This document shows, piece after piece, positions 3,863-35,739 of a stretch of DNA of 35,739 nucleotides; the first letter of the stretch is position 1, and each line of letters starts with the position of its first letter. The stretch lies in IMG/VR virus record IMGVR_UViG_3300022758_000287; one strand, given 5' to 3'. The stretch is from a virus. Lineage: Duplodnaviria > Heunggongvirae > Uroviricota > Caudoviricetes. The position numbers and the translations under genes were made by a program. The notes under the pieces were generated by a model that saw nothing but the letters and a program-made list of their open reading frames with translations, was not told where the DNA came from and ran no database searches.

Positions 3863-4003
3863 TCATACTCCTGTTCCTGTCAGGGTTTTGGCGTAATTCT
3901 TCAGTATTCGGTAATCGGTCAAAACAGAACCGAGGAAACGATATAAGCGCAGACGCCCCCAGCGGTGGCGAAGAAGTTCTGCCATATTAAACTCAAACAT
4001 CAT
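3863..4003 (-). CDS. ylcG: Small protein YlcG (DUF3950)
   Basis: 46 aa [23 protein letters not shown]..., start overlaps the rusA stop. Confidence 0.75.
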
Positions 4004-4362
4004 TCATTCCCCATTTCGGTGATGGTCAGTTCCAGCCTCCCACCTTTGGTAACAGGCATCTTCACAACGCGGTAATCAACGACCTGAGCATCATCCAGCC
4101 AGAAACCTGCTTTAGTGAGTGCGTCAAAAGCGGCTTTTTGCAGATTATCCAGGTCACGGCGACGGCGATCCGGCATGTGGCACTCAATGCGGATTTTCAC
4201 AGGCATAGCCAGGCCGATATCCAGCATTGCGTTTTTAATGATTCGGGCGACGTTATCGCGGTATGCCTGCCCCTCTGCGCTGACGTGCGTGCGCCCGCGA
4301 TTATGGCGGTAATAGCGATTATTGCTCGGAGGCCAGGGTAATGTGATGCTGTAGGTATTCAC
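4000..4362 (-). CDS. rusA: Holliday junction resolvase RusA
   Basis: 120 aa matching remembered E. coli RusA; apparent GTG start. Confidence 0.9.
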
Positions 4363-4487
4363 GCCTTAATAACCCCCTCTTTCAGCCACATAACCTGTGT
4401 TCTCGCCATACCTTCCAGCGCGCATTCTTTTGCATATGCAGCATCGACTTGCTTGGCATGCCCTTTACCGGCAATCTTCTGTATGCG
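4359..4487 (-). pseudogene. ybcO: 3' remnant of ybcO-like (DUF1364) gene; 5' portion replaced
   Basis: Last ~26 codons (...[26 protein letters not shown]) match YbcO; the frame hits stop codons immediately upstream and no frame encodes the YbcO N-terminus. Confidence 0.5.
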
Positions 4488-4568
4488 CTAAACCTAGATA
4501 GAATCCACTCTGTGCACATTGAAGCCCGCTCTATGCTTTCTTTCAGGTATTGAAGGGATTGAGATGGG

Positions 4569-4871
4569 CTAAGCATTATTGGCCTCCTGCATCAGGAGAA
4601 AGACAATCATGGCGGCGCGGAGAGGTCTGGTATCAAATATTGGGCTTACGCCTTTTGCATCCACACACCATTCAGTTAACTGGTCTAAGATAGAAATCCT
4701 GTATTTCTCAATAATCGGCCATGAAGCGCTCGGATCATTGCAGTAGTCAGGCAAATGATTTAATGGCTCAAAAGTTGTATCAGCATTTCCGTAATACCAT
4801 TTGTTGGTGTTATTCCCTGATGTTTCCGGTTTACTTGCCCAAAGGCCTTTAAAAATTATGTCTCCTACCAT
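4569..4871 (-). CDS. Hypothetical protein (100 aa) between ninE and the ybcO remnant
   Basis: Intact ORF in the nin region; no homolog recognised. Confidence 0.45.
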
Positions 4872-4911
4872 TCTGTTAATTTCAAATCACTTAACTGTGA
4901 ATAATCCATTG

Positions 4912-5088
4912 TCATTTCCTCGCACGATATCTTAGCCACCGGATATCCCACAGGTGGGCTGTGTAATTGAAGGTTTTTACGTCAGATTCTTTTGGGATTA
5001 GCTTGCGTTTATTTCTGGAGCGTTTCGTTGGAAGGTATTTGCAGTTTTCGCAGATTATGTCGGTGATGCTTCGTCGCTGTCGTCTCAT
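4912..5088 (-). CDS. ninE: NinE
   Basis: 58 aa [23 protein letters not shown]... matching lambda NinE; start overlaps the methyltransferase stop. Confidence 0.85.
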
Positions 5089-12350: not shown

Positions 12351-12433
12351 TACAAATCAATGGTGTGGGCAAGTACGAACTACGGCCAATGATTGCCAGA
12401 GAACTTGGTAAACAGAACAACAAAGCTGCCTGA
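12334..12433 (+). pseudogene. ral: ral (restriction alleviation) remnant: internal deletion plus frameshift
   Basis: Ral N-terminus MTTTIDTNQWCGQ and C-terminus MIARELGKQNNKAA are ~20 codons apart and in different frames. Confidence 0.6.
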
Positions 12434-12984: not shown

Positions 12985-13056
12985 GCGCGGCGTTACCGCA
13001 TACCAATTACGCTTCACTCGAGGCGTTTTTCGTTATGTATAAATAAGGAGCACACC

Positions 13057-13221
13057 ATGCAATATGCCATTGCAGGGTGGCCTGTTGCTGGCTGCCCTTC
13101 CGAATCTTTACTTGAACGAATCACCCGTAAATTACGTGACGGATGGAAACGCCTTATCGACATACTTAATCAGCCAGGAGTCCCAAAAAATGGATCAAAC
13201 AATTATGGCTATCCAGACTAA
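13057..13221 (+). CDS. cIII: cIII (FtsH inhibitor)
   Basis: 54 aa [54 protein letters not shown], matching lambda cIII. Confidence 0.9.
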   Translation: MQYAIAGWPVAGCPSESLLERITRKLRDGWKRLIDILNQPGVPKNGSNNYGYPD

Positions 13222-20807: not shown

Positions 20808-20972
20808 TTACATATTCTTGATGATCGCATCACCAAACTCTGAACATTTCAGCAGCTTAGCGCCTTCCATCAGACGTTCGAAGTCATAGGTTACGGTCTT
20901 CGCATTGATTGCGCCTTCCATACCTTTAACAATCAGGTCTGCGGCTTCAGTCCAGCCCATATGGCGCAGCAG
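20808..20972 (-). pseudogene. icd: Phage-borne 3' fragment of isocitrate dehydrogenase (last 54 codons plus stop, 165 nt), containing the attP crossover region
   Basis: Translates to [54 protein letters not shown], matching the Icd C-terminus; homology stops abruptly at 20972. Confidence 0.85.
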
Positions 20973-21091
20973 TATATAAAAATTATGTATTCAACTCGCT
21001 GATATTTAATCATAAATATTATTTTCTTGTCTTTGTATTAGCCAAAATCAACTTTATTCAACCGTTTGATTTCATTGACGTTCGTTTTTAT

Positions 21092-21103
21092 TTTGGGGAA
21101 AGA
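21092..21103 (+). repeat. Fourth copy of the TTTTGGGGAAAG motif on the other side of the icd core
   Basis: ttttggggaaag about 120 bp beyond the icd-homology boundary. Confidence 0.4.
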
Positions 21104-21431
21104 TTTTCTCTACCATTTATATCAAAATTACAAGTCTACATTTTATTAACATCTCAATACATGTGTGGCCTTGCAAGCCATTGCGAGGCCTTATGTGTCT
21201 CAGTTTTGTCCCGCCTTGTATTACGACTTGCATAGCCAATGAAGATAAACGTGACGACAAACAAAGCAGCTGTCTTCTTTTCTTTCACACTTTCCCCACT
21301 CAGCAGCATGCATACCTTCTACTATAACTGTAGTGAATGTCTATTATGAGCGAACTGCGGACATCGTGGAGACAACATGCTGCTGGGTGCGGATATCCCA
21401 TGGCACGTCATATCGCTCGCCGTATTACTTG

Positions 21432-22190
21432 TTATTTTTTTGAAACGAGAAGTTGATACAATTCCTTCAGGGATAAGGCTAATAACTCATTCTTCCTGAT
21501 GAGATCTTTATCAGCGTCTATACCCTCTGCGCATGATTCATTTAAATAGTTCAGTGTTTCCTGATCATCATCCAAGCATTCATAGCTGCCTGAATAAAAT
21601 TCATCGCAACTTGCTTTGTTATTTTTGTCAATGTAACCAATGCATTGAATCACGCCTTTAACAACTTTAGCAGCAGAAAAAACAAAGTAACTGCAGTCAT
21701 TTATATAGCGTTCAATATCAAAAATCATATAAAAATAGTGCATAGAGTGTTTTTCAATTTCAAACTCACTTGAAATCATAGCTATTTCACATTCAAGGTC
21801 TTTCAGACCATCTAACATTATGGAAAGTTTACATTGTTTTTCTTGCACAGTTTCATACTTAAATGACTCTCTCCCCTTTGCCCTGACATTTATTCTTTCT
21901 TCAATTGCATAAATATAAGCAGGATATACACGCGACCACACTTGGTTTATTTTTAGGATTAACCGGCCTCTTTTCAGCCTTTCTTTTGTAGCTATAAATT
22001 CTGCATATAGCGCAGCATCCTCTTCGCACCATACATCAACTTTTCGTTTATAACCCAACTTTAATTCTTTCCCTACGCATTCAGGAAACAAAGGATCAAA
22101 GTCCTTTAAGTATTCAAACTCACTTAGATAGAATCCTGTCTCATAACGATTAAATAATTTCCTAAACTCTTTCCCACTTAAGGTTTTCAT
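21432..22190 (-). CDS. Hypothetical protein (252 aa), AT-rich orphan gene in the b region
   Basis: Long intact ORF, visibly AT-rich, between attP and the sit operon; no homolog recognised. Confidence 0.6.
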   Translation of the reverse strand: MKTLSGKEFRKLFNRYETGFYLSEFEYLKDFDPLFPECVGKELKLGYKRKVDVWCEEDAALYAEFIATKERLKRGRLILKINQVWSRVYPAYIYAIEERINVRAKGRESFKYETVQEKQCKLSIMLDGLKDLECEIAMISSEFEIEKHSMHYFYMIFDIERYINDCSYFVFSAAKVVKGVIQCIGYIDKNNKASCDEFYSGSYECLDDDQETLNYLNESCAEGIDADKDLIRKNELLALSLKELYQLLVSKK

Positions 22191-22793
22191 TGTATCAATC
22201 ACTCTGTTTTCATAAAAGCAAAGTCAACAAGATAAAACAATAAAAACTCTTACACAACCAGCTGATGTTTTTAAAATAGAGGATAATATAAGACAAGCAT
22301 AACCTCGTTCACTTCAATGCTACTCCTATCGTTCTTTTGCGTCACAGAGCGCCTGCCGGACAACTGCATCATAGACCAAACGGAACTGCTTCCGTCGATT
22401 AATCAGATGGCAGCGCATAAACACGCTCAACAACCCGTTTGACTGCTTCAATTTTAAGCTCTTCGGAATAACGCTTACCGTGTAAGTCTCCCTGCAAAAC
22501 GAGCTATCAACTTTTAAGGAGTCTCTGGCCCCCCTGCTTCCGCTCCTGGCACACAGCAGCCCTAGAGACAGTGGAGTAAAGTCATGGAGGCTCGGTGGGG
22601 AGAGGTGCAAATCCTCCCATACAAAAAATACGAAAATCAGTAACGGCTAGAAATCATTCAATACATGCACTCTCGAAATTGCATCAGCCAACCGCAAAAC
22701 GTTATTTCAAAGCCTACTAGCTGCCTTACTTTTTTCCTCAATAACGCGTCGCCAGCCGGAAACAACCTAATCCCTGTTTTGGGCCTCAAAACC

Positions 22794-22812
22794 GCTAATG
22801 ATAATCATTTTC
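22794..22812 (+). promoter_or_regulatory. Fur box upstream of sitA
   Basis: gctaatgataatcattttc matches the Fur consensus gataatgataatcattatc at 17 of 19 positions. Confidence 0.7.
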
Positions 22813-22835
22813 ATTTTGTATAGGTTGTGCTATAA

Positions 22836-22855
22836 AACATAGCCGTTGCTATGTT
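22836..22855 (+). promoter_or_regulatory. MntR box upstream of sitA
   Basis: aacatagccgttgctatgtt, a perfect inverted repeat of the MntR-box type. Confidence 0.65.
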
Positions 22856-22911
22856 TGTTCTAATTTTGCTCACTATAGGTACTAAATTATGCACTCGATA
22901 AAAAAGTAACC

Positions 22912-23802
22912 ATGCTCTTGGGGGGCCTCGCACTCACCTGCTCGATCGCATTTCAGGCAAGTGCAACTGAAAAATTCAAGGTCATTACAACATTTACCAT
23001 CATCGCGGATATGGCCAAAAACGTGGCGGGAGATGCTGCAGAAGTCTCATCCATAACCAAGCCTGGTGCAGAAATTCATGAGTATCAGCCTACCCCTGGC
23101 GATATTAAACGTGCGCAGGGGGCACAACTGATTCTCGCCAATGGTATGAATCTGGAATTGTGGTTCCAACGCTTTTACCAGCATCTCAATGGGGTTCCAG
23201 AAGTAATTGTCTCTTCGGGTGTGACGCCTGTAGGGATCACCGAAGGACCCTATGAGGGCAAACCTAACCCCCATGCATGGATGTCGCCAGATAATGCTCT
23301 GATTTACGTCGATAATATTCGTGATGCGTTGATAAAATACGATCCGGCAAATGCACAAACCTACCAACGCAATGCCGATACTTATAAAGCCAAGATTACC
23401 CAAACCCTTGCCCCCCTGCGTAAGCAGATTACGGAACTCCCTGAGAATCAGCGATGGATGGTCACCAGTGAAGGGGCTTTTTCTTATCTCGCACGCGATT
23501 TGGGGCTAAAAGAGCTTTATCTGTGGCCGATTAATGCCGATCAACAAGGAACACCGCAGCAGGTACGTAAGGTTGTTGATATAGTTAAGAAAAATCATAT
23601 CCCGGCAGTCTTTAGCGAGAGTACGATTTCCGATAAACCAGCGCGTCAGGTTGCGCGTGAAACCGGCGCACACTACGGCGGTGTGCTCTATGTCGATTCC
23701 CTGAGCACAGAAAACGGCCCGGTACCGACGTATATCGACCTTCTTAAGGTTACTACCAGTACGCTGGTACAGGGAATTAAAGCTGGGAAAAGGGAGAAAT
23801 AA
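22912..23802 (+). CDS. sitA: SitA, periplasmic Mn/Fe-binding protein of an ABC transporter
   Basis: 296 aa with signal peptide; first gene of a four-gene ABC operon; an out-of-frame ATG at 22889 suggests the true start may be 8 codons upstream. Confidence 0.85.
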
Positions 23803-24629
23803 TGATGCAATCTGCAGGCATTGTCGTTAATGATGTTACTGTCACCTGGCGTAACGGGCACACAGCACTGCGCGATGCATCCTTCACAGTACCAAGTGGA
23901 TCTATTGCCGCTCTGGTTGGGGTAAACGGTTCCGGAAAATCGACGTTGTTTAAAGCGATTATGGGATTTGTGCGTCTGACCAGCGGAAAGATATCTGTTC
24001 TGGGTATTCCCACGCGACAGGCGTTACAGAAAAACCTGGTTGCCTACGTCCCTCAGTCAGAAGATGTTGACTGGTCATTTCCTGTACTGGTGGAAGATGT
24101 GGTGATGATGGGCCGCTATGGGCATATGGGTATGTTGCGTATCGCCAAAAAGAGGGATCGTCAAATTGTCACCGATGCGCTGGAACGTGTCGATATGGTG
24201 AATTTTCGCCATCGACAAATCGGCGAGCTTTCCGGTGGACAAAAGAAACGCGTCTTTCTGGCGAGAGCGATTGCACAGCAGGGTGATGTGATCCTGCTGG
24301 ATGAACCTTTTACTGGCGTTGATGTGAAAACCGAAGCCAAAATCATCAGCCTGTTGAGGGAGTTACGCGCGGAAGGCAAAACGATGCTTGTCTCAACACA
24401 CAATCTCGGATCCGTCACGACATTTTGCGATTATACGGTCATGGTCAAAGGCACCGTCCTGGCAAGCGGGCCGACAGACACCACTTTTACAGCCGAGAAC
24501 CTAGAGCTGGCTTTTAGCGGCGTACTGCGCCATGTCACACTTAACGGCTCGGAAGAAAGCATTATTACTGACGATGAACGCCCTTTTGTGGCTCATCGAC
24601 CGTCAGCGGTGCAGAGGGAAGAAAGATGA
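23802..24629 (+). CDS. sitB: SitB, ABC transporter ATP-binding protein
   Basis: Walker [10 protein letters not shown], signature LSGGQ, Walker B ILLDEP. Confidence 0.9.
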
Positions 24630-25483
24630 ACGTGCTACTGGAACCCTTCAGCTATGAATATATGCTCAATGCGATGTGGGTCTCGGCGATGGTCGGCGGT
24701 CTCTGCGCTTTCCTGTCATGCTATCTGATGCTAAAAGGCTGGTCGCTGATTGGCGATGCGTTGTCGCACTCTATTGTCCCGGGTGTTGCGGGGGCATATA
24801 TGCTGGGGCTTCCGTTTTCTCTGGGAGCCTTCTTTTCCGGCGGACTGGCTGCGGGCAGCATGCTGTTTCTTAACCAACGCACCCGCTTAAAAGAAGATGC
24901 CATCATCGGTCTGATCTTCTCGTCCTTTTTTGGCCTGGGGCTGTTTATGGTGTCATTGAACCCGACATCTGTGAACATTCAGACCATCGTCCTGGGCAAT
25001 ATTCTGGCAATCGATCCGGCGGATATCCTGCAACTCACTATCATTGGCATTCTCTCGATCATCGTGCTTTTTTTCAAATGGAAAGATCTTATGGTGACCT
25101 TTTTCGACGAGAATCACGCCCGTGCTATTGGATTGCATCCGGGCAGATTAAAACTCATCTTCTTCACCCTGCTGTCGGTTTCGACCGTTGCGGCGCTGCA
25201 AACGGTTGGTGCCTTTCTGGTGATCTGTCTGGTGGTGACTCCCGGTGCAACAGCATGGTTGTTAACCGATCGTTTTCCCCGCCTGCTCATGATTGCTGTA
25301 ACTATTGGCAGTGTAACTAGTTTCCTCGGCGCGTGGGTCAGTTACTTTCTGGACGGCGCGACAGGTGGAATCATCGTGGTGGCGCAGACACTGCTGTTTC
25401 TTTTAGCATTTGTCTTTGCGCCCACCCATGGGCTTTTGGCAAATCGTCGGCGTGCGCATAAGGCGCTGGAGGATCGCTCATGA
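24626..25483 (+). CDS. sitC: SitC, ABC transporter permease
   Basis: 285 aa polytopic membrane protein, overlapping stop/start with sitB. Confidence 0.85.
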
Positions 25484-26337
25484 TGGCATTATTACTGGAG
25501 CCACTGCAGTTCACCTTTATGAGTCACGCACTGCTGATTTCACTGGTAGTTTCCATACCCTGTGCGCTGCTGTCGGTCTTTCTGGTCCTGAAAGGTTGGG
25601 CACTGATGGGTGACGCGATGAGTCATGCGGTTTTTCCTGGAATCGTGCTTGCCTGGATTCTGGGGTTACCTTTGGCTACAGGGGCATTCGTCGCCGGAGT
25701 ATTCTGCGCGGTGGCGACGGGATACCTGAAAGACAACAGCCGAATCAAGCAAGATACAGTGATGGGGATTGTTTTTTCTGGCATGTTTGCCGCAGGTCTG
25801 ATCTTGTATATTGCAGTCAAACCAGACGTACATCTTGACCATATTCTTTTCGGCGACATGCTCGGGATAACCATCGGCGATATAATCCAGACGATGATTA
25901 TTGCCGGGCTGGTTACACTTGTTATTAGCGTAAAATGGCGGGATTTTTTGCTGTTCAGCTTTGATTATCAACAGGCGCAGGTAAGCGGTTTGCATACGAG
26001 ATGGCTGCATTATGGGCTGCTGTGCATGGTCTCTCTGACCATTGTGGCGACGCTGAAAGCGGTAGGTATCATTCTCTCCATTTCTCTGCTCATTGCGCCT
26101 GGCGCCATTGCGGTACTCCTGACACAACGCTTTCATATTGCGCTCCTACTGGCGACTGGCATATCGGTAATAGTGTCAATGACTGGTGTCTGGTTGTCCT
26201 TTTTTATCGACAGCGCACCAGCTCCGACGATTGTCGTCTTATTCGCGGTTTTGTTCATCATGACGTTTGCCGTTACCAGCATCAACGCACGCAAAAAGGG
26301 AAACTCCCATACACAGGATCTGTTATCACCCAATTAG
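25480..26337 (+). CDS. sitD: SitD, ABC transporter permease
   Basis: 285 aa polytopic membrane protein paralogous to SitC. Confidence 0.85.
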   Translation: MMALLLEPLQFTFMSHALLISLVVSIPCALLSVFLVLKGWALMGDAMSHAVFPGIVLAWILGLPLATGAFVAGVFCAVATGYLKDNSRIKQDTVMGIVFSGMFAAGLILYIAVKPDVHLDHILFGDMLGITIGDIIQTMIIAGLVTLVISVKWRDFLLFSFDYQQAQVSGLHTRWLHYGLLCMVSLTIVATLKAVGIILSISLLIAPGAIAVLLTQRFHIALLLATGISVIVSMTGVWLSFFIDSAPAPTIVVLFAVLFIMTFAVTSINARKKGNSHTQDLLSPN

Positions 26338-26428
26338 CACAACATCCGAGGACAGCAACACCCGATACTTTTTCCTGGCTTCCAGCAACGGGGTTTCTTC
26401 CTCCGTTGCATATACAGCTCACCTTTTT

Positions 26429-26722
26429 TCACCCACGATTAACCAACAGCCAGACCAGCAGACACGCCACCACCGGCACAGCAAAATCCATCAGGCTTGC
26501 CACATCCCAAGCTCGCGGATCAAAACCGCCCCACCACGGCATATTCATTCGCTTGCCATGCCCGAACATTTCAATCCAGCGATATTCTGCCTGGGTATGT
26601 TCACGCGCAATGAAGAACGTACAACCGGCTATCGCTCCGTAAGCCCAGTTTCCGGTAAAAAGACCAACCAGTATCTGCGCAGCCACAGCACAAAGCGCAT
26701 GAAGTAAGGGGCTTATATCCAT
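26429..26722 (-). CDS. Small inner-membrane protein (97 aa) at the end of the tail-fibre operon
   Basis: Strong aaggagga RBS; two or three hydrophobic helices; no homolog recognised. Confidence 0.6.
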   Translation of the reverse strand: MDISPLLHALCAVAAQILVGLFTGNWAYGAIAGCTFFIAREHTQAEYRWIEMFGHGKRMNMPWWGGFDPRAWDVASLMDFAVPVVACLLVWLLVNRG

Positions 26723-26734
26723 TATTTCCTCCTT

Positions 26735-27013
26735 TCAGCTCCATTCCCGAAGCGGTGTTTCCAGCTCCACGACATAATCAGAGAATACAGAAACATCAAA
26801 CAAGTCATCAAGAATGCGAATGTTGACAAAATAACCGTCATTCCGGACACAGACAGGTTCTCCCTCTTCTGTTACCCCTGTTTCTGTGTAGGTGAAACCA
26901 ATTTCATCGACTAACAGTTTATTCTGGAGGTCTTCATCCTCCTCCCAGTCAAGAGATGACAGGAAGGCCTTAAACTGCAGTTTGTCATGAAACTTCAAAG
27001 TTAAATCTTTCAT
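26735..27013 (-). CDS. Hypothetical acidic protein (92 aa) translationally coupled to the tail-fibre gene
   Basis: ATGA overlap with the tail-fibre stop; position suggests a fibre assembly or accessory role. Confidence 0.5.
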   Translation of the reverse strand: MKDLTLKFHDKLQFKAFLSSLDWEEDEDLQNKLLVDEIGFTYTETGVTEEGEPVCVRNDGYFVNIRILDDLFDVSVFSDYVVELETPLREWS

Positions 27014-29070
27014 ACGACCTCTTTTAATTGCCTGTCATTTAATTCTTTATGCCATATGCGGAAATTGCGAATATGGCCAAACAGATGTCGTTCTCCAGTA
27101 TTCGTCTGCCCTCCAAATCGGATATTTTTATCAGCGGTCACACCATTATATTCACAATAAACTTCATTAACCGCTTTACCATTTGTCACCACATGAAAGT
27201 GACCATCAGCTTTTGCAATACATCCAAATGTGGTTTTCTCTGCAAATACATCTGTCGCTGCGCTATTAACATACAAGCCTGAAGGGTTTGACAGACTCAT
27301 ATATAACTTACCACTACCTCTGTTGATTGCTGCAATTGCTGATTGCCCGGTATTGGCTGCTGCTATATCCCACACGCGGGGTGCGGCGTTTGGTGCAATA
27401 TCCCAGTTTTTATGAATCTCAAGTAAAAAAGTAAATGGTAACTTATAAAGATTATTTCTGGTGGGGATACTAACCAAATCACTGGCTCTTGTCGTTGCGC
27501 TGCCTCCTGAAATAATAAATGATGATACACACGGCCCATTCTCTACTTGTGGGGTGGCAAGATAAATATAGTCACCAGATACTGTTGCCCCACCCCGCTC
27601 AGGAGAATACTGTATCTGAGAGCCTATTTTTAACTCACCATCAATTGCCTGAATCGTTGCCTCTGCAAAAATCCAGCCTGTGGTCTTATCCTTCCTGACT
27701 CGTGCCGTAATTCTGCCGGCAGCCCCACCTGTCATATTAATTTCAAGCGTTTGCGTATCAATGTACGCATCGCCAAGAAAAGTTGTTGCACTACCATCAT
27801 ACTTATCAAACCGTATACGTAACCTTACCTGTCGTTCTGTTTTAAAACGGCATGAGGTTGTCACGTACTTGTTATCGCCTGAGACATCAACTGACTTTGT
27901 TGCAGCAATTGATGCCATATTAATAGCCGAAGTTTGCCCAACCAGAGAATCGTTGCAGACAAACTTTCCATAAGTAAAACCAAAACTATCTGTCCCGGTT
28001 TCGGGCACATCCATGTTTGATGACTTCCCCCAGCTGGCTGGACTTTCCGAATTGAGCATGTAGTTCGTTCTTTGTCCCTCAATAAGCAGGCCATCACACT
28101 CAAATCGCGGCTCATTAATTTCCGCCGTTTTCAGTTCGCCAGATTTGTTGATATATGTTGCCGTTGATGCGCGACTGAAATTAACCTGTTTATCACTGGC
28201 GACCTGAACCACATCGTCACCAATAGCTATTTTTTTATAGCCCGGAGAAAAACCCGCAATCATATCCAGTGAATCGTTAAACGGTATCCACACATCAGGC
28301 AGCGGCGGCACTATATTCGCATAGGGCTCTGCAGTCACTTCCGCTGCGACTTCTGCGCGGTCTGCCGCCTTTTCAGCCCGTGTCGCTGCCGACAGAGCCT
28401 CATCCTTTTTCTGCCCGGCCTTTGTTGCGTCTGCTGCGGCCTCCCGCGCTTTTGTGGTGGCGACTCCGGCATTTTCAGCGGCTGACTCTGCATTACGGCG
28501 GGAAGCCTCTTCACTGTCTGCGGAGGCTTCTTCTGACGCACGGGCATTTGTCTCTGAACGTTCTGCCGCTGTTGCTGCGTTTTGTGCGGCTGTTTTTGAA
28601 GAAGCTGCCGCTTTCGCGCTGTTACCTGCATTCGTCTCTGATGTTTTCGCCGCATTCCTGGACGATGCCGCTGCTGTTTCTGATTTCTTTGCTGCCGCTG
28701 CGCTCTGAGAGGCGGCTTCAGCGTTGCGTGCCACCTCTTCCACCATCTTTTCAAAACGATACAGTGCCTCCGGACGAACATCATCTTCTGTTGCAGCGCC
28801 CAGAAAATCATTCAATGTCCCCGGCTTAGAATCCTCATACACGGTGATGGCCCCGGCATGTGAAGGCGGAAAACCTTCAACCAGCAGGATAACGCTGTAC
28901 TGGCCATACTCGACATCCATGCTGTAACGTCCGGCTTCATCCGGATTTTCTGAGGCCACCGTGTTCACCACAACCGTGGTGCTGTTACGTTTTGCTTTGA
29001 GCTGAATGGTGCAGTTCTGTATCGGTTTTCCTGCACCGTCTTTCAGCACGCCTGAAATCTGTACTGCCAT
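27010..29070 (-). CDS. Tail fibre protein (lambdoid side-tail-fibre type with Ala-rich central region)
   Basis: N-terminus MAVQISGVLKDGAGKPIQNCTIQLKA... typical of lambdoid tail fibres; long Ala/Ser-rich segment; ggag RBS. Confidence 0.8.
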   Translation of the reverse strand: MAVQISGVLKDGAGKPIQNCTIQLKAKRNSTTVVVNTVASENPDEAGRYSMDVEYGQYSVILLVEGFPPSHAGAITVYEDSKPGTLNDFLGAATEDDVRPEALYRFEKMVEEVARNAEAASQSAAAAKKSETAAASSRNAAKTSETNAGNSAKAAASSKTAAQNAATAAERSETNARASEEASADSEEASRRNAESAAENAGVATTKAREAAADATKAGQKKDEALSAATRAEKAADRAEVAAEVTAEPYANIVPPLPDVWIPFNDSLDMIAGFSPGYKKIAIGDDVVQVASDKQVNFSRASTATYINKSGELKTAEINEPRFECDGLLIEGQRTNYMLNSESPASWGKSSNMDVPETGTDSFGFTYGKFVCNDSLVGQTSAINMASIAATKSVDVSGDNKYVTTSCRFKTERQVRLRIRFDKYDGSATTFLGDAYIDTQTLEINMTGGAAGRITARVRKDKTTGWIFAEATIQAIDGELKIGSQIQYSPERGGATVSGDYIYLATPQVENGPCVSSFIISGGSATTRASDLVSIPTRNNLYKLPFTFLLEIHKNWDIAPNAAPRVWDIAAANTGQSAIAAINRGSGKLYMSLSNPSGLYVNSAATDVFAEKTTFGCIAKADGHFHVVTNGKAVNEVYCEYNGVTADKNIRFGGQTNTGERHLFGHIRNFRIWHKELNDRQLKEVV

Positions 29071-29085
29071 ATTCACTCCACAAAT

Positions 29086-29110
29086 AAAAAAGGCGCCATT
29101 TCTGGCGCCC
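29086..29110 (-). terminator. Intrinsic terminator between J and the tail-fibre gene
   Basis: Stem ggcgcc / ggcgcc with loop, followed on the minus strand by a T6 run. Confidence 0.55.
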
Positions 29111-29128
29111 GTATCTGGGTTATAAAAT

Positions 29129-32100
29129 TCAACTGATACTGATACCGGCTGTAGATTTCTTCATCACAACAACAAGAAGGTCGCTGATACTGGTCGTTGG
29201 CGTCCAGTTATTAGCACCATATGAAGAAACATTGAAAGTCAGGGTGACATGGCCGTGTCCGGCAGGCATATCAATGACTGATGAAAATACCCTGCTGACA
29301 TCCGTCGCGGGTTGCTGAAAGATTTCCTGTCCGTTCTTCAGTACCTGCAGCTTACAGGTTGAATACCAGTATGACTGTTGGTTGTTGCTGTTGAAGTTTT
29401 CATGCTTACCCCCACGAAACAGAACGGGGGGGACTACTATCTGACGGTCAAAAGCCTGGTCATCGTACACAGTGACCGTTATTGTACCGCTGGCATAACT
29501 GCCATTTCTCGGAAAGGCTTTTCCCACCGCTTTGACAATATCACCTTCAATCTGGTTAGCTGACAGTTTTCCCAGAATCCGACAGTTCTGATTAATCGTG
29601 ACGTTGTTGAGCGTCCCGGAGTTCGCGTTCACGTTACCGCTGATATCCGCATTTTTCGCAGAAAGTCGACCATCAGGTGTCAGTGAAAACGTTGGGGGAT
29701 TGCCACCGCTGGTAATGGTGGGAGCCGTCAGATATTTCAGGAACACTTCGTTCATGAATATCTGATCGCCCTGCCCAACAAACATCGGCTTTGTGTTGCC
29801 ATTCGCAGGATTAATCATCGCAATCCTGTCCGCCGCCAGCAGCACCTGACTCTGCATACCGTCAGGAGTATTCTCAACACCGGCACCAATACCCGCGATA
29901 TAAAGGCGTCCGTCCTGCATCTGCTGCAGCTTCACAGCCCACATGCTGTTCAGGTTATTATTTGTATCAACCTGAACCTTCTGTATCTGCTGGATCGCTG
30001 CACTCTGGTCTTCCAGTTTCTTATTGACGGTCTGCGTGATTTCATTGCTGACACCCGTAATGGACGTCCTGATTTCAGCCAGGTCAGGCGCAAGCTGACC
30101 GTTATCAATCTGCGTCCACAACTCCTGAGCCAGATGGGTTTTCCCTATCTCTCCTTTGAAAAAATTCAGATAGCCGGATGCATCATCACTCGGCTGGCCA
30201 ACAGCCTCCACAAATGCCGATTTGCCAACGGTGTTCACACTGCGGATGTAAAAATAATAATCATGGCCCGGTTTGATATTGATACTGGCGGCTATCCAGT
30301 ACAGCGCCGTGCCAAGATAGCGTGCTGTGGTTTCAACCTGCCTGATATCCGCAATCCGCTTTTCCGAGAACCAGAACTCAAACTGTACCGTCGGATCATA
30401 AACCGCAAGATGCGGCGTGGCGGTTATCTGAAAATACCCCGGTGTCAGCTCAATCTGCGACGGCGCTGCCGGTGCGGCAATCCGGAACGATACCGATGCC
30501 GGATCGCCCTGCTGCCCCCACGCATTTACCGCCCGGACTGTCAGCCTGTAGTTCCCCAGCGCCAGTTGCCTGAAGCGGTATGTGGTTTCCGTCGTCCGGG
30601 CCGTGCTGGCCAGCCGCTCACTGCCGTCATCCGCTGCCACGGTCAGGCGAAGCATAAAGCTCACCCCCTTCACCACCTTCGGCGTGTCCCAGCGCGCCAG
30701 CACCTGATATTCCCCGCTGTCTGCGGTGACTTCGGCAGTCAGGTGCTGCACCGCTGGCGGCGTGACACCATTCACCGTGCCGCTCTGGTCGCCGTCAAAG
30801 TGCGCCCCGTTATCCACGATGGCCTCTTTTTCCGGTACATGCTGCACGGCAGTGATGGCATACGTGCCGTCATCGTTCTCACGGATACTCACACAGCGGA
30901 ACAGGCGCTGGCGCAACGTCGGCAACTTCAGCCCCCACACGCTGTATTCTGCAACGCCGTCAGGAACACGGCTCACTTTTACCTTCACGCCGTCGGTGAC
31001 GGACTGGACCTCCACGCTGACCGGATTCCCCTGTCCGTCAGCCAGGCTTATCAGCGTGGTGCCGGAGGATGGCAGCGTGATTTCACGGTCGAGCGTCAGT
31101 GTCCGCGTCTGGTTGTTCACCGCCAGCACGCGCCCGCCGATGCTGATCCCCGCATAGTCATCATCACAGATTTCAATGACATCGCCCGGTACATGGCGAA
31201 GCCCTTCTGCACCCACGCTGAAGTCCACGGTCTGCGTTTCCAGCAGTTCCGTTTTAATCAGCCACAGCCCGGCGCGGTGTGCCTGCCCCCGGCTGGTACA
31301 GCCAAAAGCATCCATCTTCGTGACGTTACGACCGTAACGGGCAATGGCCTGCGTATCCTCCACAAGCTCTGTCGCCGTCTCCCAGCCGTTGTCCGGGTCA
31401 ATCCAGTTCACCTCAACGGCATTATGGCGGTCTTTCAGGGCGCTGAAGCTGTAGCGGAACGGCGCGCCATCATCCGGCATCACCACATTACTGCGGTTAT
31501 AGGTCCACACCTTATCCGACGGTCGGTCCTGCACGAACGTCAGCGTCTGCCCGTTCCATACCGGCATACAGCGCATCGCCGAGCAGAAATCACTGAGCAC
31601 ATCCCACGCCTTGCGCTGTGTGGTCAGGTACGCATTACAGGTGATGCGCGGCTCCGTGCCGCCAAAGCCGTCCGGCACTGACTGGTCGCAGTACTGGCCG
31701 ATGACATACAGCGCCCATTTGTCCACATCCGCCGCACCAAGACGTTTCCCCATGCCGTAGCGCGGGTGGGTCAGCATATCCCACAGACACCAGGCCATGT
31801 TGTTGCTGTATGCTGGTTTTAACGTTCCGTCCCAGATACCGCTGTATTGCCGCGTCTGCGGGTTATAATTCGACGGCACCTGCAGAATACGCCCGCGCAG
31901 ATGATAATTACGGCTCACCTGCTGGCTGCCGAACTGCTCCGAATCCACCTGCACGCCGACCAGTGCCGTGTTCGGGTAGCACTGTTTCACATCGATGATT
32001 TCGGTGTATGACGACCAGAGCGTTTTGTTCTGCAGCTGGTCTGTGGTGCTGTCCGGTGTCATCCTGCGCATCCGGATATTGAACGGGCGCGGAGGCAGGT

Positions 32101-32611
32101 TATCCACCACCACCGAGGCCAGATACTGCGAGGTGGTTTTGCCCTTAATGGTGATGTCTTTTTCCGTCACCCAGCCACCGTTACGCTGTATCTGAACCAG
32201 CAGGCGAACTTCCGACGGATTCCTGTCTCCCTTTGAGGTGGTTTCCACCAGTGCCTGCACGCCGAAAGTAAAACGCAGACGGTCAATGTTTGCCGACGTG
32301 ATGGTCCGGGTGATCGGCGTGTCATATTTCACTTCTGTACCGAGCACCGTCTCGGAGCCGGAGGATTCAAATCCCTCCGGCGGTGTCTGCTCCTGCTCAC
32401 CGGCCCGGAACACCACCGTGACGCCGAATATATTGGTATTCCCCTCACTGTCCAGCACCGGCGTACTGTTCAGCAGCACGCTTTTTAATCCATCCACCGG
32501 ACCTTCAACCGGCCCTTCGCTGATGGCGTCTATCACGCTCAGCATCTGGGATGATTTCAGGTTGTCCTTCGCTTCGCGCGGGGTATGCCCCTTACTGCTG
32601 CCTTTACCCAT
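29129..32611 (-). CDS. J: Host specificity / central tail fibre protein J
   Basis: 1160 aa, N-terminal ~1000 aa near-identical to lambda J; C-terminal receptor-binding region divergent. Confidence 0.95.
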
Positions 32612-32671
32612 TCGTCATGCTCCATAAACGATAAAACCGCCCGGAGGCGGTTTCACATAAAACATTTTGCA

Positions 32672-33343
32672 TCAGCGACCAATCACCACAACCTGACCAC
32701 CATCCCCTTCGTCTGCCGTGCTGATCTCCTGAGAAACCACGCGTGACCCCACGCGCATTTCACCGTACAGAACCGGCAGAACATTGCCCTGGGCAACCAT
32801 GTTATCCAGTGAGGAGAAATAGGTGTTCTGTTTGCCGTTATCCGTTGTCTGTGTACGGGGAGTTCTGGCTTTCGGTGCCAGCATCTGCGCCACACCACCG
32901 AGCACCATACTGGCACCGAGAGAAAACAGGATGCCGGTCATACCACCGGCCCCAATGGCTGCCCCCCATGCTGCAAGGGTGGCTCCGGCAGTAAAGAATG
33001 ATCCGGCAATGGCGGCTGCTCCCAGGACAATCTGGAATACGCCACCTGACTTGGCCCCGGCGACTCTGGGAACAATATGAATCACAGCGCCATCAGGCAG
33101 AGTCTCATGTAACTGCGCCGTTAACCCGGACGTGCTGACGTCCCGCCCGGCAATCCGTACCTGATACCAGCCGTCGCTCAGTTTCTGACGAAACGCCGGG
33201 AGCTGTGTGGCCAGTGCGCGGATGGCTTCAGCCCCCGTTTTCACACGAAGGTCGATGCGGCGGCCAAATCGTTGCAAATCCCCGTAAAGGCAGATGCGCG
33301 CCATGCCCGGTGACGCCAGAGGGAGTGTGTGCGTCGCTGCCAT
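32672..33343 (-). CDS. I: Tail assembly protein I
   Basis: 223 aa matching lambda I. Confidence 0.9.
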   Translation of the reverse strand: MAATHTLPLASPGMARICLYGDLQRFGRRIDLRVKTGAEAIRALATQLPAFRQKLSDGWYQVRIAGRDVSTSGLTAQLHETLPDGAVIHIVPRVAGAKSGGVFQIVLGAAAIAGSFFTAGATLAAWGAAIGAGGMTGILFSLGASMVLGGVAQMLAPKARTPRTQTTDNGKQNTYFSSLDNMVAQGNVLPVLYGEMRVGSRVVSQEISTADEGDGGQVVVIGR

Positions 33344-33984
33344 TTGTCGGTATACCTCTCTCGTTTGCTCAGTTGTTCAGGAATATGGTGCAGCAGCTCG
33401 CCATCACCACAGTAAATGGCGGCATGATTCGGCACCGATGAACCAAAACAGCACAGCAGCACATCGCCCGGTTGTGCTGATGACAACGGCACCTGATACA
33501 GCCCTGTGGCCTCCAGATTATCCAGATAGAGATTCTGGCCGTTACGCCACCAGTCATCCTCACGATGAAAGTCCGGCATCTCAATCCCCGCCAGATGGTA
33601 AGCGTCCCGGAACAGCGTGTAACAGTCCGTCACCCCGTGCTCAAAGCGCCGCCCGGTGAGATGCGGCACACAGCGGAACTTATGAATCGCCCCCCGGCAG
33701 ACCAGCCACCACGGCAAATCACTCTGCACCTGCAGCCGCCGGTCGGCCTCACTCAGCCAGGGCAGACCACCGGGATGACTGTGGACCAGCGCCACAATCT
33801 CACCCTGCATCTCTGCCTGCAGCCAGTCCTCCGGAGCCATCCGGAAATACGCCTCCGGCTCACCGGAGATATTCACGCAGGGAAAATATCTTTCCCCCTC
33901 CGGCGCTCTCACCACGAAGCCGCACGACTCCGCTGGCGCACATCGCCGGGCATGCGCCAGAATCGCTGATTCTGTCTCTGTCAT
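33241..33984 (-). CDS. K: Tail assembly protein K (JAB/MPN plus NlpC/P60 domains)
   Basis: 247 aa matching lambda K, including the HSHP metalloprotease motif. Confidence 0.9.
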   Translation of the reverse strand: MTETESAILAHARRCAPAESCGFVVRAPEGERYFPCVNISGEPEAYFRMAPEDWLQAEMQGEIVALVHSHPGGLPWLSEADRRLQVQSDLPWWLVCRGAIHKFRCVPHLTGRRFEHGVTDCYTLFRDAYHLAGIEMPDFHREDDWWRNGQNLYLDNLEATGLYQVPLSSAQPGDVLLCCFGSSVPNHAAIYCGDGELLHHIPEQLSKRERYTDKWQRRTHSLWRHRAWRASAFTGICNDLAAASTFV

Positions 33985-33989
33985 GGGAT

Positions 33990-34690
33990 TTACTGCGAAA
34001 GTTTGTTAATGGAAAGGAAGCCGCCAAAGTTGCCGACGTTATTGCGAAACTTACAGCCGCTCAGGCATTTGCTGCATTTATCCTTCGTGATATCGGAAGT
34101 CGGCTGATCATATTCATCCGCGACCGCCGGACCGTGATAACCGCACTCATCACCGCGATAGGTCCAGGTGCAGGTATTAGCCAGCATGATGCGCCCCCGG
34201 AAAAAACGGCACCATCCGTTTCCGTCGGTGTGGACAGTACAAAGGAGGCACTGACCGCACTCAGTTCGCTGCACTGCTCGATGCGCCAGCGGCTGATCAC
34301 CTCCTGCTCCGGATCGGCGTCGCTGTTTCCGTTGACGAAGTTCACCGCATCCAGAAAACGGGCGTAAACCTTACGCCTGACCACCGTTCCGCCGACCAGA
34401 CTCTGCAGATCTTCCACCATCCCGGTGACCATACCGTACAGGTTAGAAACCGTCAGCGTGGGGCGCGTACTGGTGCCTTTGCCATTCAGTTCAAAACCAC
34501 TCCCCTGAATGGGATACGGCTGATACTGTCGCCCCTGCCAGGTGACCGGCTCACCTTTTTCGTTCTGCTCATTACAGAAAAAATAACGTTCTCCACCGAC
34601 CTCTGTCAGATCGATTTCCCAGAGCACCACGCTGGCCGACTGCTCCGCACGGGTGCATTCATTCAATGTTTCCTGCCGGATATCCTGCAT
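33990..34690 (-). CDS. L: Tail tip protein L, interrupted by two adjacent +1 insertions
   Basis: N-terminal ~170 aa and C-terminal ~60 aa both match lambda L in different frames; switch at the adjacent C5 and A6 runs 34194-34206. Confidence 0.85.
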
Positions 34691-35019
34691 CAGTTCACCA
34701 CCTGTTCAAACTCTGCGCTGAACTCAACACGCAGCATACTGACCCGCGACGACCATTTTGCGCAGGTCACCTTTATCTGCCTGTAACCATAAGGCGGCGT
34801 CCACAGAAAGGCCTTCCAGCCCCCGTGCTCAGCCAGAAACGACTCCAGCGCCGTGGCCTCCTCACGGGAGACAGACAGCGTCACGCTGTACGTTTTCAGG
34901 TCAGCGTTCAGCCCGGCAGGCGCACGCTGGGAATAGCCATCACCAAAGCGCACCTCCCTGACGGAAGGAGCCGATGTCACATCCATCCCGGGTTTCACTT
35001 TCCAGCGGAAGGTTTTCAT
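34690..35019 (-). CDS. M: Tail tip protein M
   Basis: 109 aa matching lambda M. Confidence 0.9.
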   Translation of the reverse strand: MKTFRWKVKPGMDVTSAPSVREVRFGDGYSQRAPAGLNADLKTYSVTLSVSREEATALESFLAEHGGWKAFLWTPPYGYRQIKVTCAKWSSRVSMLRVEFSAEFEQVVN

Positions 35020-35739
35020 CGTCCACCTCCGGAGAACAGACCACCATCGCGCATCTGTGCCTGGATTTCATCACGGGCACCCTTGCGGGCCATGTCATAC
35101 ACCGCCTTCATCATCTGTGGACCTGGCAGACCATTCGTACCGTCGTTCTGAATCACCACGTTGTTGTTCTGCTCAAACCTGATACCCTCTGAACGCCGCA
35201 TTTGCGCCGGACTTCCGGTGCCACCGACATAACCGCCGGTGGCATAGCCGCGCATCAGCCGGTAGAGATTTCCCACGCCAATCCGGCTGGTTGCCTCCTT
35301 CGTGAAGACAAATTCACCACGGTGAACAATCCCCGCTGGCTCATATTTGCCGCCGGTTCCCGTAAATCCTCCGGTTGCAAAATGGAGTTTCGCCGCAGCG
35401 GCCTGAATGGCTGTACCGCCTGACGCGGATGCGCCGCCACCAACAGCCCCGCCAATAGCGCTGCCGATACTCCCGACAATCCCCACCATTGCCTGCTTAA
35501 GCAGAATTTCTGTCATCATGGACAGCACGGAACGGGTGAAGCTGCGCCAGTTCTGTTCACTGCCGGTCAGCATCGCCGCCATATTCTGCGCAATACCATC
35601 AAAGGTCTGCGTGGCAGCACTTTTAACCTGCGACATACTGTCCGTGGCACTCTCTTCCCACTCACTCCAGCCGGACTTCAGGCCTGCCATCCAGTTCCCG
35701 CGAAGCAGGTCTTCAGCCGCCCAGGTCTTTTTCTGCTCT
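35016..35739 (-). CDS. H: Tape measure protein H, 3' part only (5' end beyond the window)
   Basis: Matches the C-terminal region of lambda H; ORF runs off the window end. Confidence 0.9.
   Translation of the reverse strand, partial: EQKKTWAAEDLLRGNWMAGLKSGWSEWEESATDSMSQVKSAATQTFDGIAQNMAAMLTGSEQNWRSFTRSVLSMMTEILLKQAMVGIVGSIGSAIGGAVGGGASASGGTAIQAAAAKLHFATGGFTGTGGKYEPAGIVHRGEFVFTKEATSRIGVGNLYRLMRGYATGGYVGGTGSPAQMRRSEGIRFEQNNNVVIQNDGTNGLPGPQMMKAVYDMARKGARDEIQAQMRDGGLFSGGGR

What the first reader, a model, noticed from the sequence alone, without database searches (positions are those of the whole stretch)
4359..4871. Mosaic junction in the nin region: a 100-aa ORF replaces the 5' part of ybcO
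Only the last ~26 codons before rusA match YbcO (...[26 protein letters not shown]). Immediately upstream, that frame hits stop codons and no frame encodes the Cys-rich YbcO N-terminus. Instead a different intact 100-aa ORF (4569-4871) lies between ninE and the remnant. This looks like a recombination breakpoint that brought in a new gene, unlike the single-base indels seen elsewhere.
Basis: partly seen in the sequence, partly recalled or inferred. Interest (0 to 1): 0.5.

Follow-up and report, generated by a model that had tools for sequence, protein, structure and literature searches.

The report
Known NinX gene beside ybcO remnant
This is an ordinary, widely shared recombination scar in a lambda-like prophage, and the "new" 100-aa gene is the known phage gene ninX, which reads short only because this sequence lacks one base.

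Summary
The ybcO remnant is real. Only YbcO residues 68-96 survive (window 4448-4362, minus strand), stop codons lie just upstream, and no YbcO N-terminus exists anywhere in the window.

The 100-aa ORF (4569-4871) is neither new nor intact. It is Met14 to the end of the 113-aa P22-type nin gene ninX (Pfam PF10765). The true start is at 4909. A single-base deletion (T4 to T3 at 4884-4886) breaks the frame. That deletion was absent from all 1,075 matching complete E. coli records, from IMG/VR and from GTDB representative genomes. The window carries about 19 such run-length single-base indels in 21 kb against 2 substitutions, so a sequencing error is the likeliest cause.

The junction has three parts: a P22/ST64T-type ninE-ninX plus the first 21 codons of ninF; an orphan 65 nt; and a DLP12/phage-82-type ybcO 3' end followed by rusA-ylcG-quuD.

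The identical junction occurs in 560 complete E. coli genomes, where RefSeq already annotates a partial DUF1364 pseudogene. It also occurs in 27 phage records and in 55 of 120 IMG/VR loci.

Verdict: the mosaic junction is confirmed, the "new gene" reading is refuted, and the interest is low.

The parts
4912..5088 (-). ninE, P22/ST64T-type allele, forming the left flank of the mosaic block
   Evidence: PF05322 NinE, E 5.7e-41. Annotated as a 177-nt NinE family protein in CFT073. Near-identical to ST64T ninE and only distantly similar to DLP12 ninE.
4569..4909 (-). ninX (P22 NinX / DUF2591 family). It encodes 113 aa in relatives and is frameshifted in this window.
   Evidence: CFT073 and D8 annotate a 342-nt 'phage protein NinX family protein' at the equivalent place. 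tblastn places NinX residues 1-8 in one frame at 4909-4886 and residues 9-113 in another at 4886-4572, 100% identical. The 113-aa form covers Pfam model positions 1-114 of 114 and phrog_444 end to end.
4884..4886 (-). Site of the private single-base deletion: a T3 run here against T4 in all relatives. It causes a premature TAG at 4867-4865.
   Evidence: Alignment to CFT073. None of 1,075 E. coli records reaches 99% identity on a 60-nt probe spanning the site; the listed hits are 98.4%, one gap. The exact T3 probe finds 0 hits in IMG/VR and in GTDB genomes, while the T4 control finds at least 120 IMG/VR contigs.
4569..4871 (-).
   Evidence: the ORF listing. Its Pfam match covers only model positions 46-114. 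It lacks the family's conserved N-terminal motif MDYSxLSDFEIN (alignment A4).
4514..4576 (-). 5' fragment of ninF (codons 1-21). Its ATG overlaps the ninX stop region, as in P22-like phages.
   Evidence: tblastn of ST64T NinF: residues 1-21, 81% identical, E 1.6e-7. phrog_672 positions 1-22 of 58 only. Homology to P22-like phages ends at query position 399, window 4514 (alignment).
4382..4576 (-). 64-aa chimeric ORF: the NinF N-terminus, then read-through of the orphan segment and of the ybcO remnant out of frame. RefSeq annotates it as 'protein ninF' in phages ev207 and ev099.
   Evidence: the ORF listing and the ev207 annotation. It has no Pfam hit, so the NinF zinc-ribbon part matched by PF05810 (ST64T NinF residues 20-44) is not detectably present.
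4449..4513 (-). Orphan 65-nt segment between the ninF fragment and the ybcO remnant. It resembles neither parent.
   Evidence: No alignment to ST64T ninF or to DLP12 ybcO. Found only in this junction and, at 88.8% identity, in unannotated DNA after ninE in Stx1 phages and about 250 further E. coli genomes, mostly STEC among those listed. No terminator-like site, no unusual fold (z = +1.15) and no Rfam hit.
4359..4448 (-). ybcO (DUF1364 / PF07102) 3' remnant: codons 68-96 plus the stop. It contains the GAGGGGG Shine-Dalgarno-like sequence upstream of rusA.
   Evidence: tblastn. Pfam YbcO model positions 62-92 only, 17.7 bits against a cut-off of 29.9. RefSeq partial pseudogene annotation. Full-length YbcO homologues of phage 82, mEp237 and others align only from residue 14 of the 42-aa open frame.
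4000..4362 (-). rusA, DLP12/82-type, forming the right flank of the mosaic block
   Evidence: PF05866 RusA, E 6.9e-23. Annotated rusA in CFT073, D8 and ev207.

Best explanation
The interval is a non-functional recombination scar inside the non-essential nin region of a lambdoid prophage or phage.

A P22/ST64T-type left module (ninB, dam, ninE, ninX and the start of ninF) is joined to a DLP12/phage-82-type right module (the end of ybcO, rusA, ylcG, quuD, porin). An orphan 65 nt lies between them. The 3' two-thirds of ninF, any gene that followed it, and the first 67 codons of ybcO were lost. The loss includes the Cys-rich part of YbcO, so the putative nuclease YbcO is not made.

Inferred steps: the junction arose once by illegitimate or micro-homology recombination. 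It then spread as part of a conserved ninE-to-porin block through homologous exchange among lambdoid phages. The retained ybcO tail carries the rusA ribosome-binding site, so rusA can still be translated.

The 100-aa ORF is simply ninX read from an internal methionine. This sequence lacks one T in a T4 run at 4884-4886. That deletion is most likely a sequencing or assembly error, and less likely a very recent private mutation.
For: Shown for the parts of the junction:
- NinX identity.
- One-base difference from CFT073 over 801 nt.
- T3 variant absent from 1,075 E. coli records and from two large collections, with a positive T4 control.
- About 19 single-base run-length indels against 2 substitutions over 21 kb relative to strain D8.
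- YbcO residues 68-96 only, NinF residues 1-21 only.
- Breakpoints from three- and four-way alignments.
- ninE is P22-type rather than DLP12-type.

Shown for distribution and context:
- Identical junction in 560 genomes (at least 80% of the 801-nt query), in 589 records at 95% identity or more on a junction-spanning 91-mer, in 27 phage records including ev207 and mEp332, and in 55 of 120 IMG/VR loci.
- The uninterrupted order ninX-ninF-(orf)-ybcO-like-rusA exists in ST64T, and ninX-ninF-(gap)-ybcO-like exists in other viral contigs.
- The phage L paper describes lambda's ren-to-Q nin genes as non-essential, the nin genes as tightly packed, and lambdoid genomes as highly mosaic (PMC8022706).
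Against: - The origin of the orphan 65 nt was not found, so the exact series of events (one deletion, or two successive joins) is not resolved.
- Overlap between the flanking homologies at the mid/ybcO join is at most 7 nt, so micro-homology use can be neither shown nor excluded.
- Whether the missing T is an error or a real mutation cannot be decided without reads.
- Continued rusA expression from its own Shine-Dalgarno sequence is inferred from the sequence, not measured.
Confidence: 0.9

Rival explanations
1. The ninX frameshift is a genuine mutation in this strain or phage, inactivating ninX as part of prophage decay. It is not a sequencing error.
For: The sequence as given has T3. The element sits in a prophage context where pseudogenes occur; D8 has annotated frameshifted or partial genes nearby. 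The window also has a 97-bp deletion within the D8 Ral-family CDS, between short repeats, which looks biological.
Against: The variant is found in none of 1,075 E. coli records, in no IMG/VR contig and in no GTDB representative genome. It is one of about 19 single-base run-length changes against only 2 substitutions in 21 kb, with 9 of them packed into the first 280 bases. That ratio is typical of homopolymer-length sequencing error and not of mutation accumulation.
Confidence: 0.2
2. The 100-aa ORF is an independent, newly acquired gene of unknown family that displaced the ybcO 5' end.
For: It is the longest ATG ORF in the interval.
Against: It is 100% identical to residues 14-113 of the annotated 113-aa NinX family protein. 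It passes the Pfam NinX threshold. It lacks the most conserved N-terminal motif of that family, which is encoded just upstream in another frame. About 130 homologues, mostly named NinX/DUF2591, are typically 110-130 aa long.
Confidence: 0.02
3. The 64-aa NinF'-chimeric ORF (4576-4382) is a functional new small protein created by the junction.
For: It has an ATG in the normal ninF position overlapping the ninX stop. It is open in all carriers examined and is annotated as 'protein ninF' in two RefSeq phages.
Against: It has no Pfam hit, so the NinF zinc-ribbon part is not detectably present. Only residues 1-22 resemble NinF. By my own reading of the sequence (not a tool result), the diverged copy of the same DNA in Stx1 phages has no start codon in that frame, and most of its 10 substitutions would change amino acids. 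Its C-terminal part is ybcO read out of frame.
Confidence: 0.05
4. The orphan 65 nt is a conserved non-coding element, for example part of a Rho-dependent terminator or another regulatory site of the nin region, and not junk.
For: It persists at 88.8% identity in a second, unrelated context after ninE in Stx1 phages and about 250 further E. coli genomes, mostly STEC among those listed. According to the title of Cheng et al. 1995, cited in PMC8022706, the lambda nin region contains Rho-dependent termination regions.
Against: No terminator-like site falls in the interval. The predicted fold is no more stable than shuffled sequence (z = +1.15; 177 of 200 shuffles fold at least as well). There is no Rfam match. 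Two sequence variants give no power to detect covariation.
Confidence: 0.05

Closest known systems
Bacteriophage P22 NinX (Pfam PF10765, DUF2591; PHROG 444), as annotated in ST64T, phage L and CFT073 (WP_000386643.1)
   Same: Same family, same position immediately after ninE, and about 95% nucleotide identity to ST64T ninX. It is 100% identical to the CFT073 protein apart from the frameshift.
   Different: In this window one T is missing, so the gene is split into a 14-codon piece and the 100-aa ORF. The family's function is unknown. The AlphaFold model (pLDDT 90) resembles only uncharacterised structural-genomics proteins, 1r7l and 4pup, at TM about 0.6.
YbcO of the DLP12 cryptic prophage / orf96 of phage 82 (Pfam PF07102, DUF1364; PHROG 131 'HNH endonuclease')
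   Same: The last 29 codons and the overlap of the stop with the rusA start are the same, with 27/29 residues identical.
   Different: Residues 1-67, including all the Cys-rich part, are absent. The fragment scores below the Pfam cut-off and has no start codon for the full frame. RefSeq calls it a partial pseudogene.
The same ninE-ninX-ninF'-'ybcO-rusA block in E. coli CFT073, Nissle 1917, UTI89, ATCC 25922 and D8, and in phages ev207, ev017, mEp332 and Lambda_2E9
   Same: 99.3-99.9% identical across the whole junction in the closest of these, and 98.5-98.7% in mEp332 and the Lambda_2E9 group. The flanking genes run from ren to the porin.
   Different: All of them have T4 at the ninX homopolymer and therefore an intact 113-aa ninX.
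P22-like nin region with intact ninF and a ybcO-like HNH gene (Salmonella phage ST64T)
   Same: The gene order is ninE-ninX-ninF-orf-HNH(ybcO-like)-rus. The left part is about 95% identical to the window up to ninF codon 21.
   Different: ST64T keeps a full ninF, an extra ORF and a full ybcO-like gene. Its right-hand genes are a different, diverged allele set.

Membership tests
NinX (Pfam PF10765 Phage_P22_NinX / DUF2591) | Profile match above Pfam's gathering score | tested here: met
   The 100-aa ORF scores 52.4 bits against a cut-off of 22.6. The 113-aa CFT073 allele, identical apart from the restored base, scores 62.1 bits. phrog_444 E 7.6e-44.
NinX (Pfam PF10765 Phage_P22_NinX / DUF2591) | Full-length domain including the conserved N-terminal motif MDYSxLSDFEIN | tested here: not met
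   As written, the window ORF covers model positions 46-114 only. The motif is encoded at 4909-4877 in another frame because of the 1-nt deletion. With the base restored the match is to positions 1-114 of 114. The gene is therefore a member, and its reading frame is broken in this copy.
NinX (Pfam PF10765 Phage_P22_NinX / DUF2591) | Genomic position in the nin region directly downstream of ninE | tested here: met
   The ninE stop is at 4914-4912 and the ninX ATG at 4909, as in ST64T, CFT073 and ev207.
YbcO (Pfam PF07102 / DUF1364, putative nuclease) | Profile match above the gathering score over the whole domain | tested here: not met
   The open frame scores 17.7 bits against a cut-off of 29.9 and matches model positions 62-92 of 92 only.
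YbcO (Pfam PF07102 / DUF1364, putative nuclease) | Cys-rich N-terminal two-thirds (residues 1-67 of K-12 YbcO) | tested here: not met
   tblastn of K-12 YbcO against all six frames of the window finds only residues 68-96. All other hits have E >= 1.1.
NinF (Pfam PF05810) | Zinc-ribbon core matched by the Pfam model (ST64T NinF residues 20-44) | tested here: not met
   The 64-aa ORF has no Pfam hit. Only residues 1-21/22 match NinF or phrog_672. ST64T NinF itself matches PF05810 at residues 20-44.
Lambdoid mosaic module junction | Abrupt switch of near-identity from one phage lineage to another at a defined point, shared by otherwise different phages | tested here: met
   Left of 4514 the DNA is about 95% identical to ST64T and unlike DLP12. 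Right of 4448 it is near-identical to DLP12 and unlike ST64T. The same junction occurs in a Jouyvirus (ev207), in records named Lambda_*, and in prophages of diverse E. coli.

The most novel reading that the evidence does not exclude
The junction may not be inert. Either the orphan 65 nt (4449-4513), which survives at 89% identity in a second, unrelated post-ninE context in Stx1 phages, is a small cis-acting element of the early-right operon, or the 64-aa NinF'-chimeric ORF is a de novo small protein kept by the many phages that carry this block.
Probability: 0.05. Interest if true: 0.3.

Novelty: already known. Interest (0 to 1): 0.08.

Why it matters
It matters little biologically. It is one more example of the well-described mosaicism of lambdoid nin regions, already annotated in RefSeq genomes such as CFT073 and D8 (intact NinX plus a partial DUF1364 pseudogene).

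The practical lessons concern the scan:
- An ORF that looks "intact and new" can be the tail of a known gene broken by a homopolymer indel a few bases outside the flagged interval.
- This window carries many such indels, so any frameshift-based finding in it needs the same check against close relatives.

It also shows that phage records deposited with K-12 or ECOR13 as host (mEp332, PhiR11_1, PhiR57_1) lack both ninF and ybcO. This fits the description of lambda's nin genes as non-essential.

Tried and rejected
1. An intact ybcO in another frame or elsewhere in the window. Rejected by six-frame tblastn.
2. The 100-aa ORF as a novel family. Rejected by Pfam, PHROGs and homologue searches.
3. 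A function for NinX from structure. The AlphaFold model is confident (pLDDT 90.3). A PDB sequence search gave only chance-level thioredoxin hits with E >= 0.04. Foldseek found only two uncharacterised proteins, 1r7l and 4pup. No function could be assigned.
4. Origin of the orphan 65 nt.
   - blastn against phages and all complete E. coli genomes found it only in this junction and in an unannotated Stx-phage segment.
   - The 28-nt hit in strain AST198 is a further deletion derivative of the same junction.
   - Word-7 blastn against the ninF-to-ybcO intervening DNA of other IMG/VR loci found nothing.
   - tblastn of the open ybcO frame shows that full-length YbcO homologues start aligning only at residues 11-14 of that frame.
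5. A terminator, promoter, RNA structure or Rfam family in the junction. Nothing above background.
6. A programmed frameshift in ninX. Rejected because every relative has a continuous 113-aa frame with T4.
7. The literature search for NinX function found only genome-description papers stating that nin gene functions are largely unknown.
The alignment tool was used instead.

Full report
**Layout.** All genes in the interval lie on the minus strand. Read 5' to 3' on that strand, the order is:
- ninB (6067-5609)
- a Dam-type methyltransferase; the listed ORF is 5672-5085, and the annotated 528-nt CDS in CFT073 corresponds to about 5612-5085
- ninE (5088-4912)
- the flagged interval
- rusA (4362-4000)
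- ylcG
- a QuuD-type antiterminator (3792-3394)
- an OmpC/NmpC-type porin on the plus strand

**The ybcO remnant is real.**
- tblastn of K-12 YbcO (96 aa) against all six frames of the window finds one significant match. It covers residues 68-96 at 4448-4362, with 27 of 29 residues identical.
- Every other hit is at chance level, with E >= 1.1.
- The frame is closed just upstream by two TAG codons.
- The stop TGA at 4361-4359 overlaps the rusA GTG at 4362-4360.
- The open frame matches only Pfam YbcO model positions 62-92 of 92, at 17.7 bits against a cut-off of 29.9.
- Full-length YbcO homologues from phage 82, mEp237 and others align only from residue 14 of the 42-aa open frame.
- RefSeq annotates the same 90 nt in CFT073 and D8 as a partial DUF1364 pseudogene missing its N-terminus.

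**The 100-aa ORF is ninX.**
- It passes Pfam's NinX model (PF10765) at 52.4 bits against a cut-off of 22.6, but covers only model positions 46-114.
- In CFT073 the gene at this place is a 113-aa 'phage protein NinX family protein' that starts two bases after the ninE stop.
- Over 801 nt the window and CFT073 differ at a single position: a T4 run in CFT073 is T3 in the window, at 4884-4886.
- As a result, NinX residues 1-8 are encoded at 4909-4886 in one frame and residues 9-113 at 4886-4572 in another, the latter 100% identical.
- The upstream frame ends at a TAG at 4867-4865. The first ATG in the downstream frame (4871) is Met14 of NinX.
- The 113-aa form covers the whole Pfam model (positions 1-114, 62.1 bits) and PHROG 444 end to end.
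- In a 42-sequence family alignment, Y3, I11 and N12 are invariant and D2, S7, D8, F9 and E10 nearly so. This motif, MDYSxLSDFEIN, is exactly what the 100-aa ORF lacks.

**The missing base is private to this window.**
- A 60-nt probe spanning the site hits 1,075 complete E. coli records. None reaches 99% identity, and the listed hits are 98.4%, meaning one gap.
- An exact 38-nt T3 probe finds nothing in IMG/VR or in GTDB representative genomes. The T4 control finds at least 120 IMG/VR contigs.
- Against the closest genome (strain D8), the first 21 kb of the window shows about 19 single-base indels and only 2 substitutions. Nearly all the indels lengthen or shorten a run of identical bases, and 9 lie in the first 280 bases.
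- This pattern is typical of homopolymer-length sequencing error. I therefore think the ninX frameshift is most likely an artefact (about 0.8) and less likely a real mutation (about 0.2). Only reads can settle it.

**Anatomy of the junction.**
- P22-like Salmonella phages (ST64T, L, ST104) match the interval at about 95% from ninE through ninX and into ninF. The match stops at window 4514 (alignments).
- The retained ninF piece is codons 1-21 at 4576-4514, 81% identical at the protein level to ST64T NinF and matching phrog_672 positions 1-22.
- DLP12 homology begins at 4448 and is almost perfect through rusA.
- ninE itself is the P22/ST64T allele and is only distantly similar to DLP12 ninE. 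The left module is therefore P22-type and the right module DLP12/82-type.
- Between them lie 65 nt (4513-4449) that match neither parent.

**The orphan 65 nt.**
- Together with ninF codons 12-21, it recurs at 88.8% identity in unannotated DNA just after ninE in the Stx1 phages AU6Stx1 and SH2026Stx1, and in about 250 further E. coli genomes that are mostly STEC among those listed.
- I found no intact gene that contains it.
- It has no terminator-like site. Its predicted RNA fold is no better than shuffled sequence (z = +1.15). It has no Rfam match.

**The 64-aa ORF (4576-4382).**
- It starts at the ninF ATG and reads through the orphan segment and then through the ybcO remnant out of frame.
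- RefSeq calls it 'protein ninF' in phages ev207 and ev099.
- It has no Pfam hit, so the NinF zinc-ribbon part is not detectably present.
- By my own reading of the Stx-phage sequence, that copy lacks a start codon in this frame and most of its substitutions would change amino acids.
- I regard this ORF as an accidental product of the junction.

**Distribution.**
- The full ninE-to-rusA stretch is present at at least 80% coverage in 560 of 5,426 complete E. coli genomes.
- A junction-spanning 91-mer is at least 95% identical in 589 records from varied hosts, including human, dog, cattle, goat, pig and poultry isolates.
- The same junction is in 27 phage records, including ev207 (genus Jouyvirus), ev017, mEp332 and records named Lambda_2E9. 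In ev207 the flanking genes from ren to the porin are the same as here.
- It is also in 55 of 120 IMG/VR loci retrieved with the ninX probe.
- Other IMG/VR contigs carry ninX followed by a full ninF, 250-750 bp of other DNA, and a diverged ybcO homologue. ST64T carries ninX, ninF, an ORF, a ybcO-like HNH gene and then rus.
- So ninX upstream of ybcO and rusA is a normal lambdoid gene order. This junction is a deletion-type scar between two allele sets and not the insertion of a new gene.

**How it most likely works.**
- The scar itself does nothing. YbcO and NinF are lost, and ninX is kept; it is intact in all relatives.
- rusA retains its own GAGGGGG Shine-Dalgarno-like sequence inside the ybcO tail. 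I infer this from the sequence and did not test it.
- Phage records with this block list K-12 or ECOR13 as host. This fits the description of lambda's ren-to-Q nin genes as non-essential, tightly packed and highly mosaic (PMC8022706).

**NinX function remains unknown.** The AlphaFold model is confident (pLDDT 90.3, pTM 0.84). It resembles only two uncharacterised structural-genomics proteins, 1r7l (a Bacillus cereus phage protein) and 4pup, at TM about 0.6. The PDB sequence search gave only chance-level hits.

**Verdict.** The junction is real. The 'new intact gene' is a known gene with a probably artefactual frameshift. Everything here is already represented and annotated in public genomes, so the interest is low.

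Noticed in passing
window 30, 39, 49, 65, 89, 133, 245, 279, 1666, 1691, 1776, 1808, 4883-4886, 7575, 8540, 9155, 12373, 12386: About 19 single-base indels against only 2 substitutions relative to strain D8 over 21 kb. Nearly all change the length of a run of identical bases, and 9 fall in the first 280 bases (the iss region). This looks like homopolymer sequencing error, so any frameshift or pseudogene call in this window should be checked against relatives.
   Followed up: partly
window 20971/20972: In strain D8, window 1-20971 maps to 1,927,533-1,948,599, ending past int and inside the 3' end of icd. Window 20902-35739 maps about 29 kb upstream, to 1,898,594-1,913,430, which holds sitABCD and the tail gene J. 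The window therefore reads as if the roughly 50-kb icd-integrated element were circularised or permuted across its attachment site.
   Followed up: partly
window 12366-12386: A 97-bp deletion relative to D8. In D8 coordinates it falls inside the CDS annotated 'antirestriction Ral family protein', between short similar sequences (GGACAAT / GGGCAAT). Unlike the single-base indels it looks like a real deletion.
   Followed up: no
window 13044-13102 (+): Rfam Lambda_thermo (the cIII thermoregulator element), 88.5 bits against a gathering score of 50. It is the only Rfam family found in the window.
   Followed up: no
protein P0032 (from; not in the window): A 148-aa E. coli protein that is an in-frame fusion of about 87 NinX residues to the C-terminal two-thirds of a YbcO homologue (Pfam PF10765 plus PF07102). 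It is an independent ninX/ybcO deletion junction in another prophage, showing that such fusions recur in nin regions.
   Followed up: no
L006 2001-2089 (Stx1 phage AU6Stx1) and about 250 further E. coli genomes, mostly STEC among those listed: An 89-nt relic (ninF codons 12-21 plus the orphan segment) sits in unannotated DNA between ninE and a large gene on the opposite strand. It is 88.8% identical to the window's version. Its persistence in two contexts is unexplained.
   Followed up: partly
NinX family alignment A4: NinX proteins are themselves mosaic. The N-terminus (residues 1-67) and the C-terminal helix ([10 protein letters not shown]) are conserved, while residues about 68-95 fall into several unrelated variants.
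   Followed up: no
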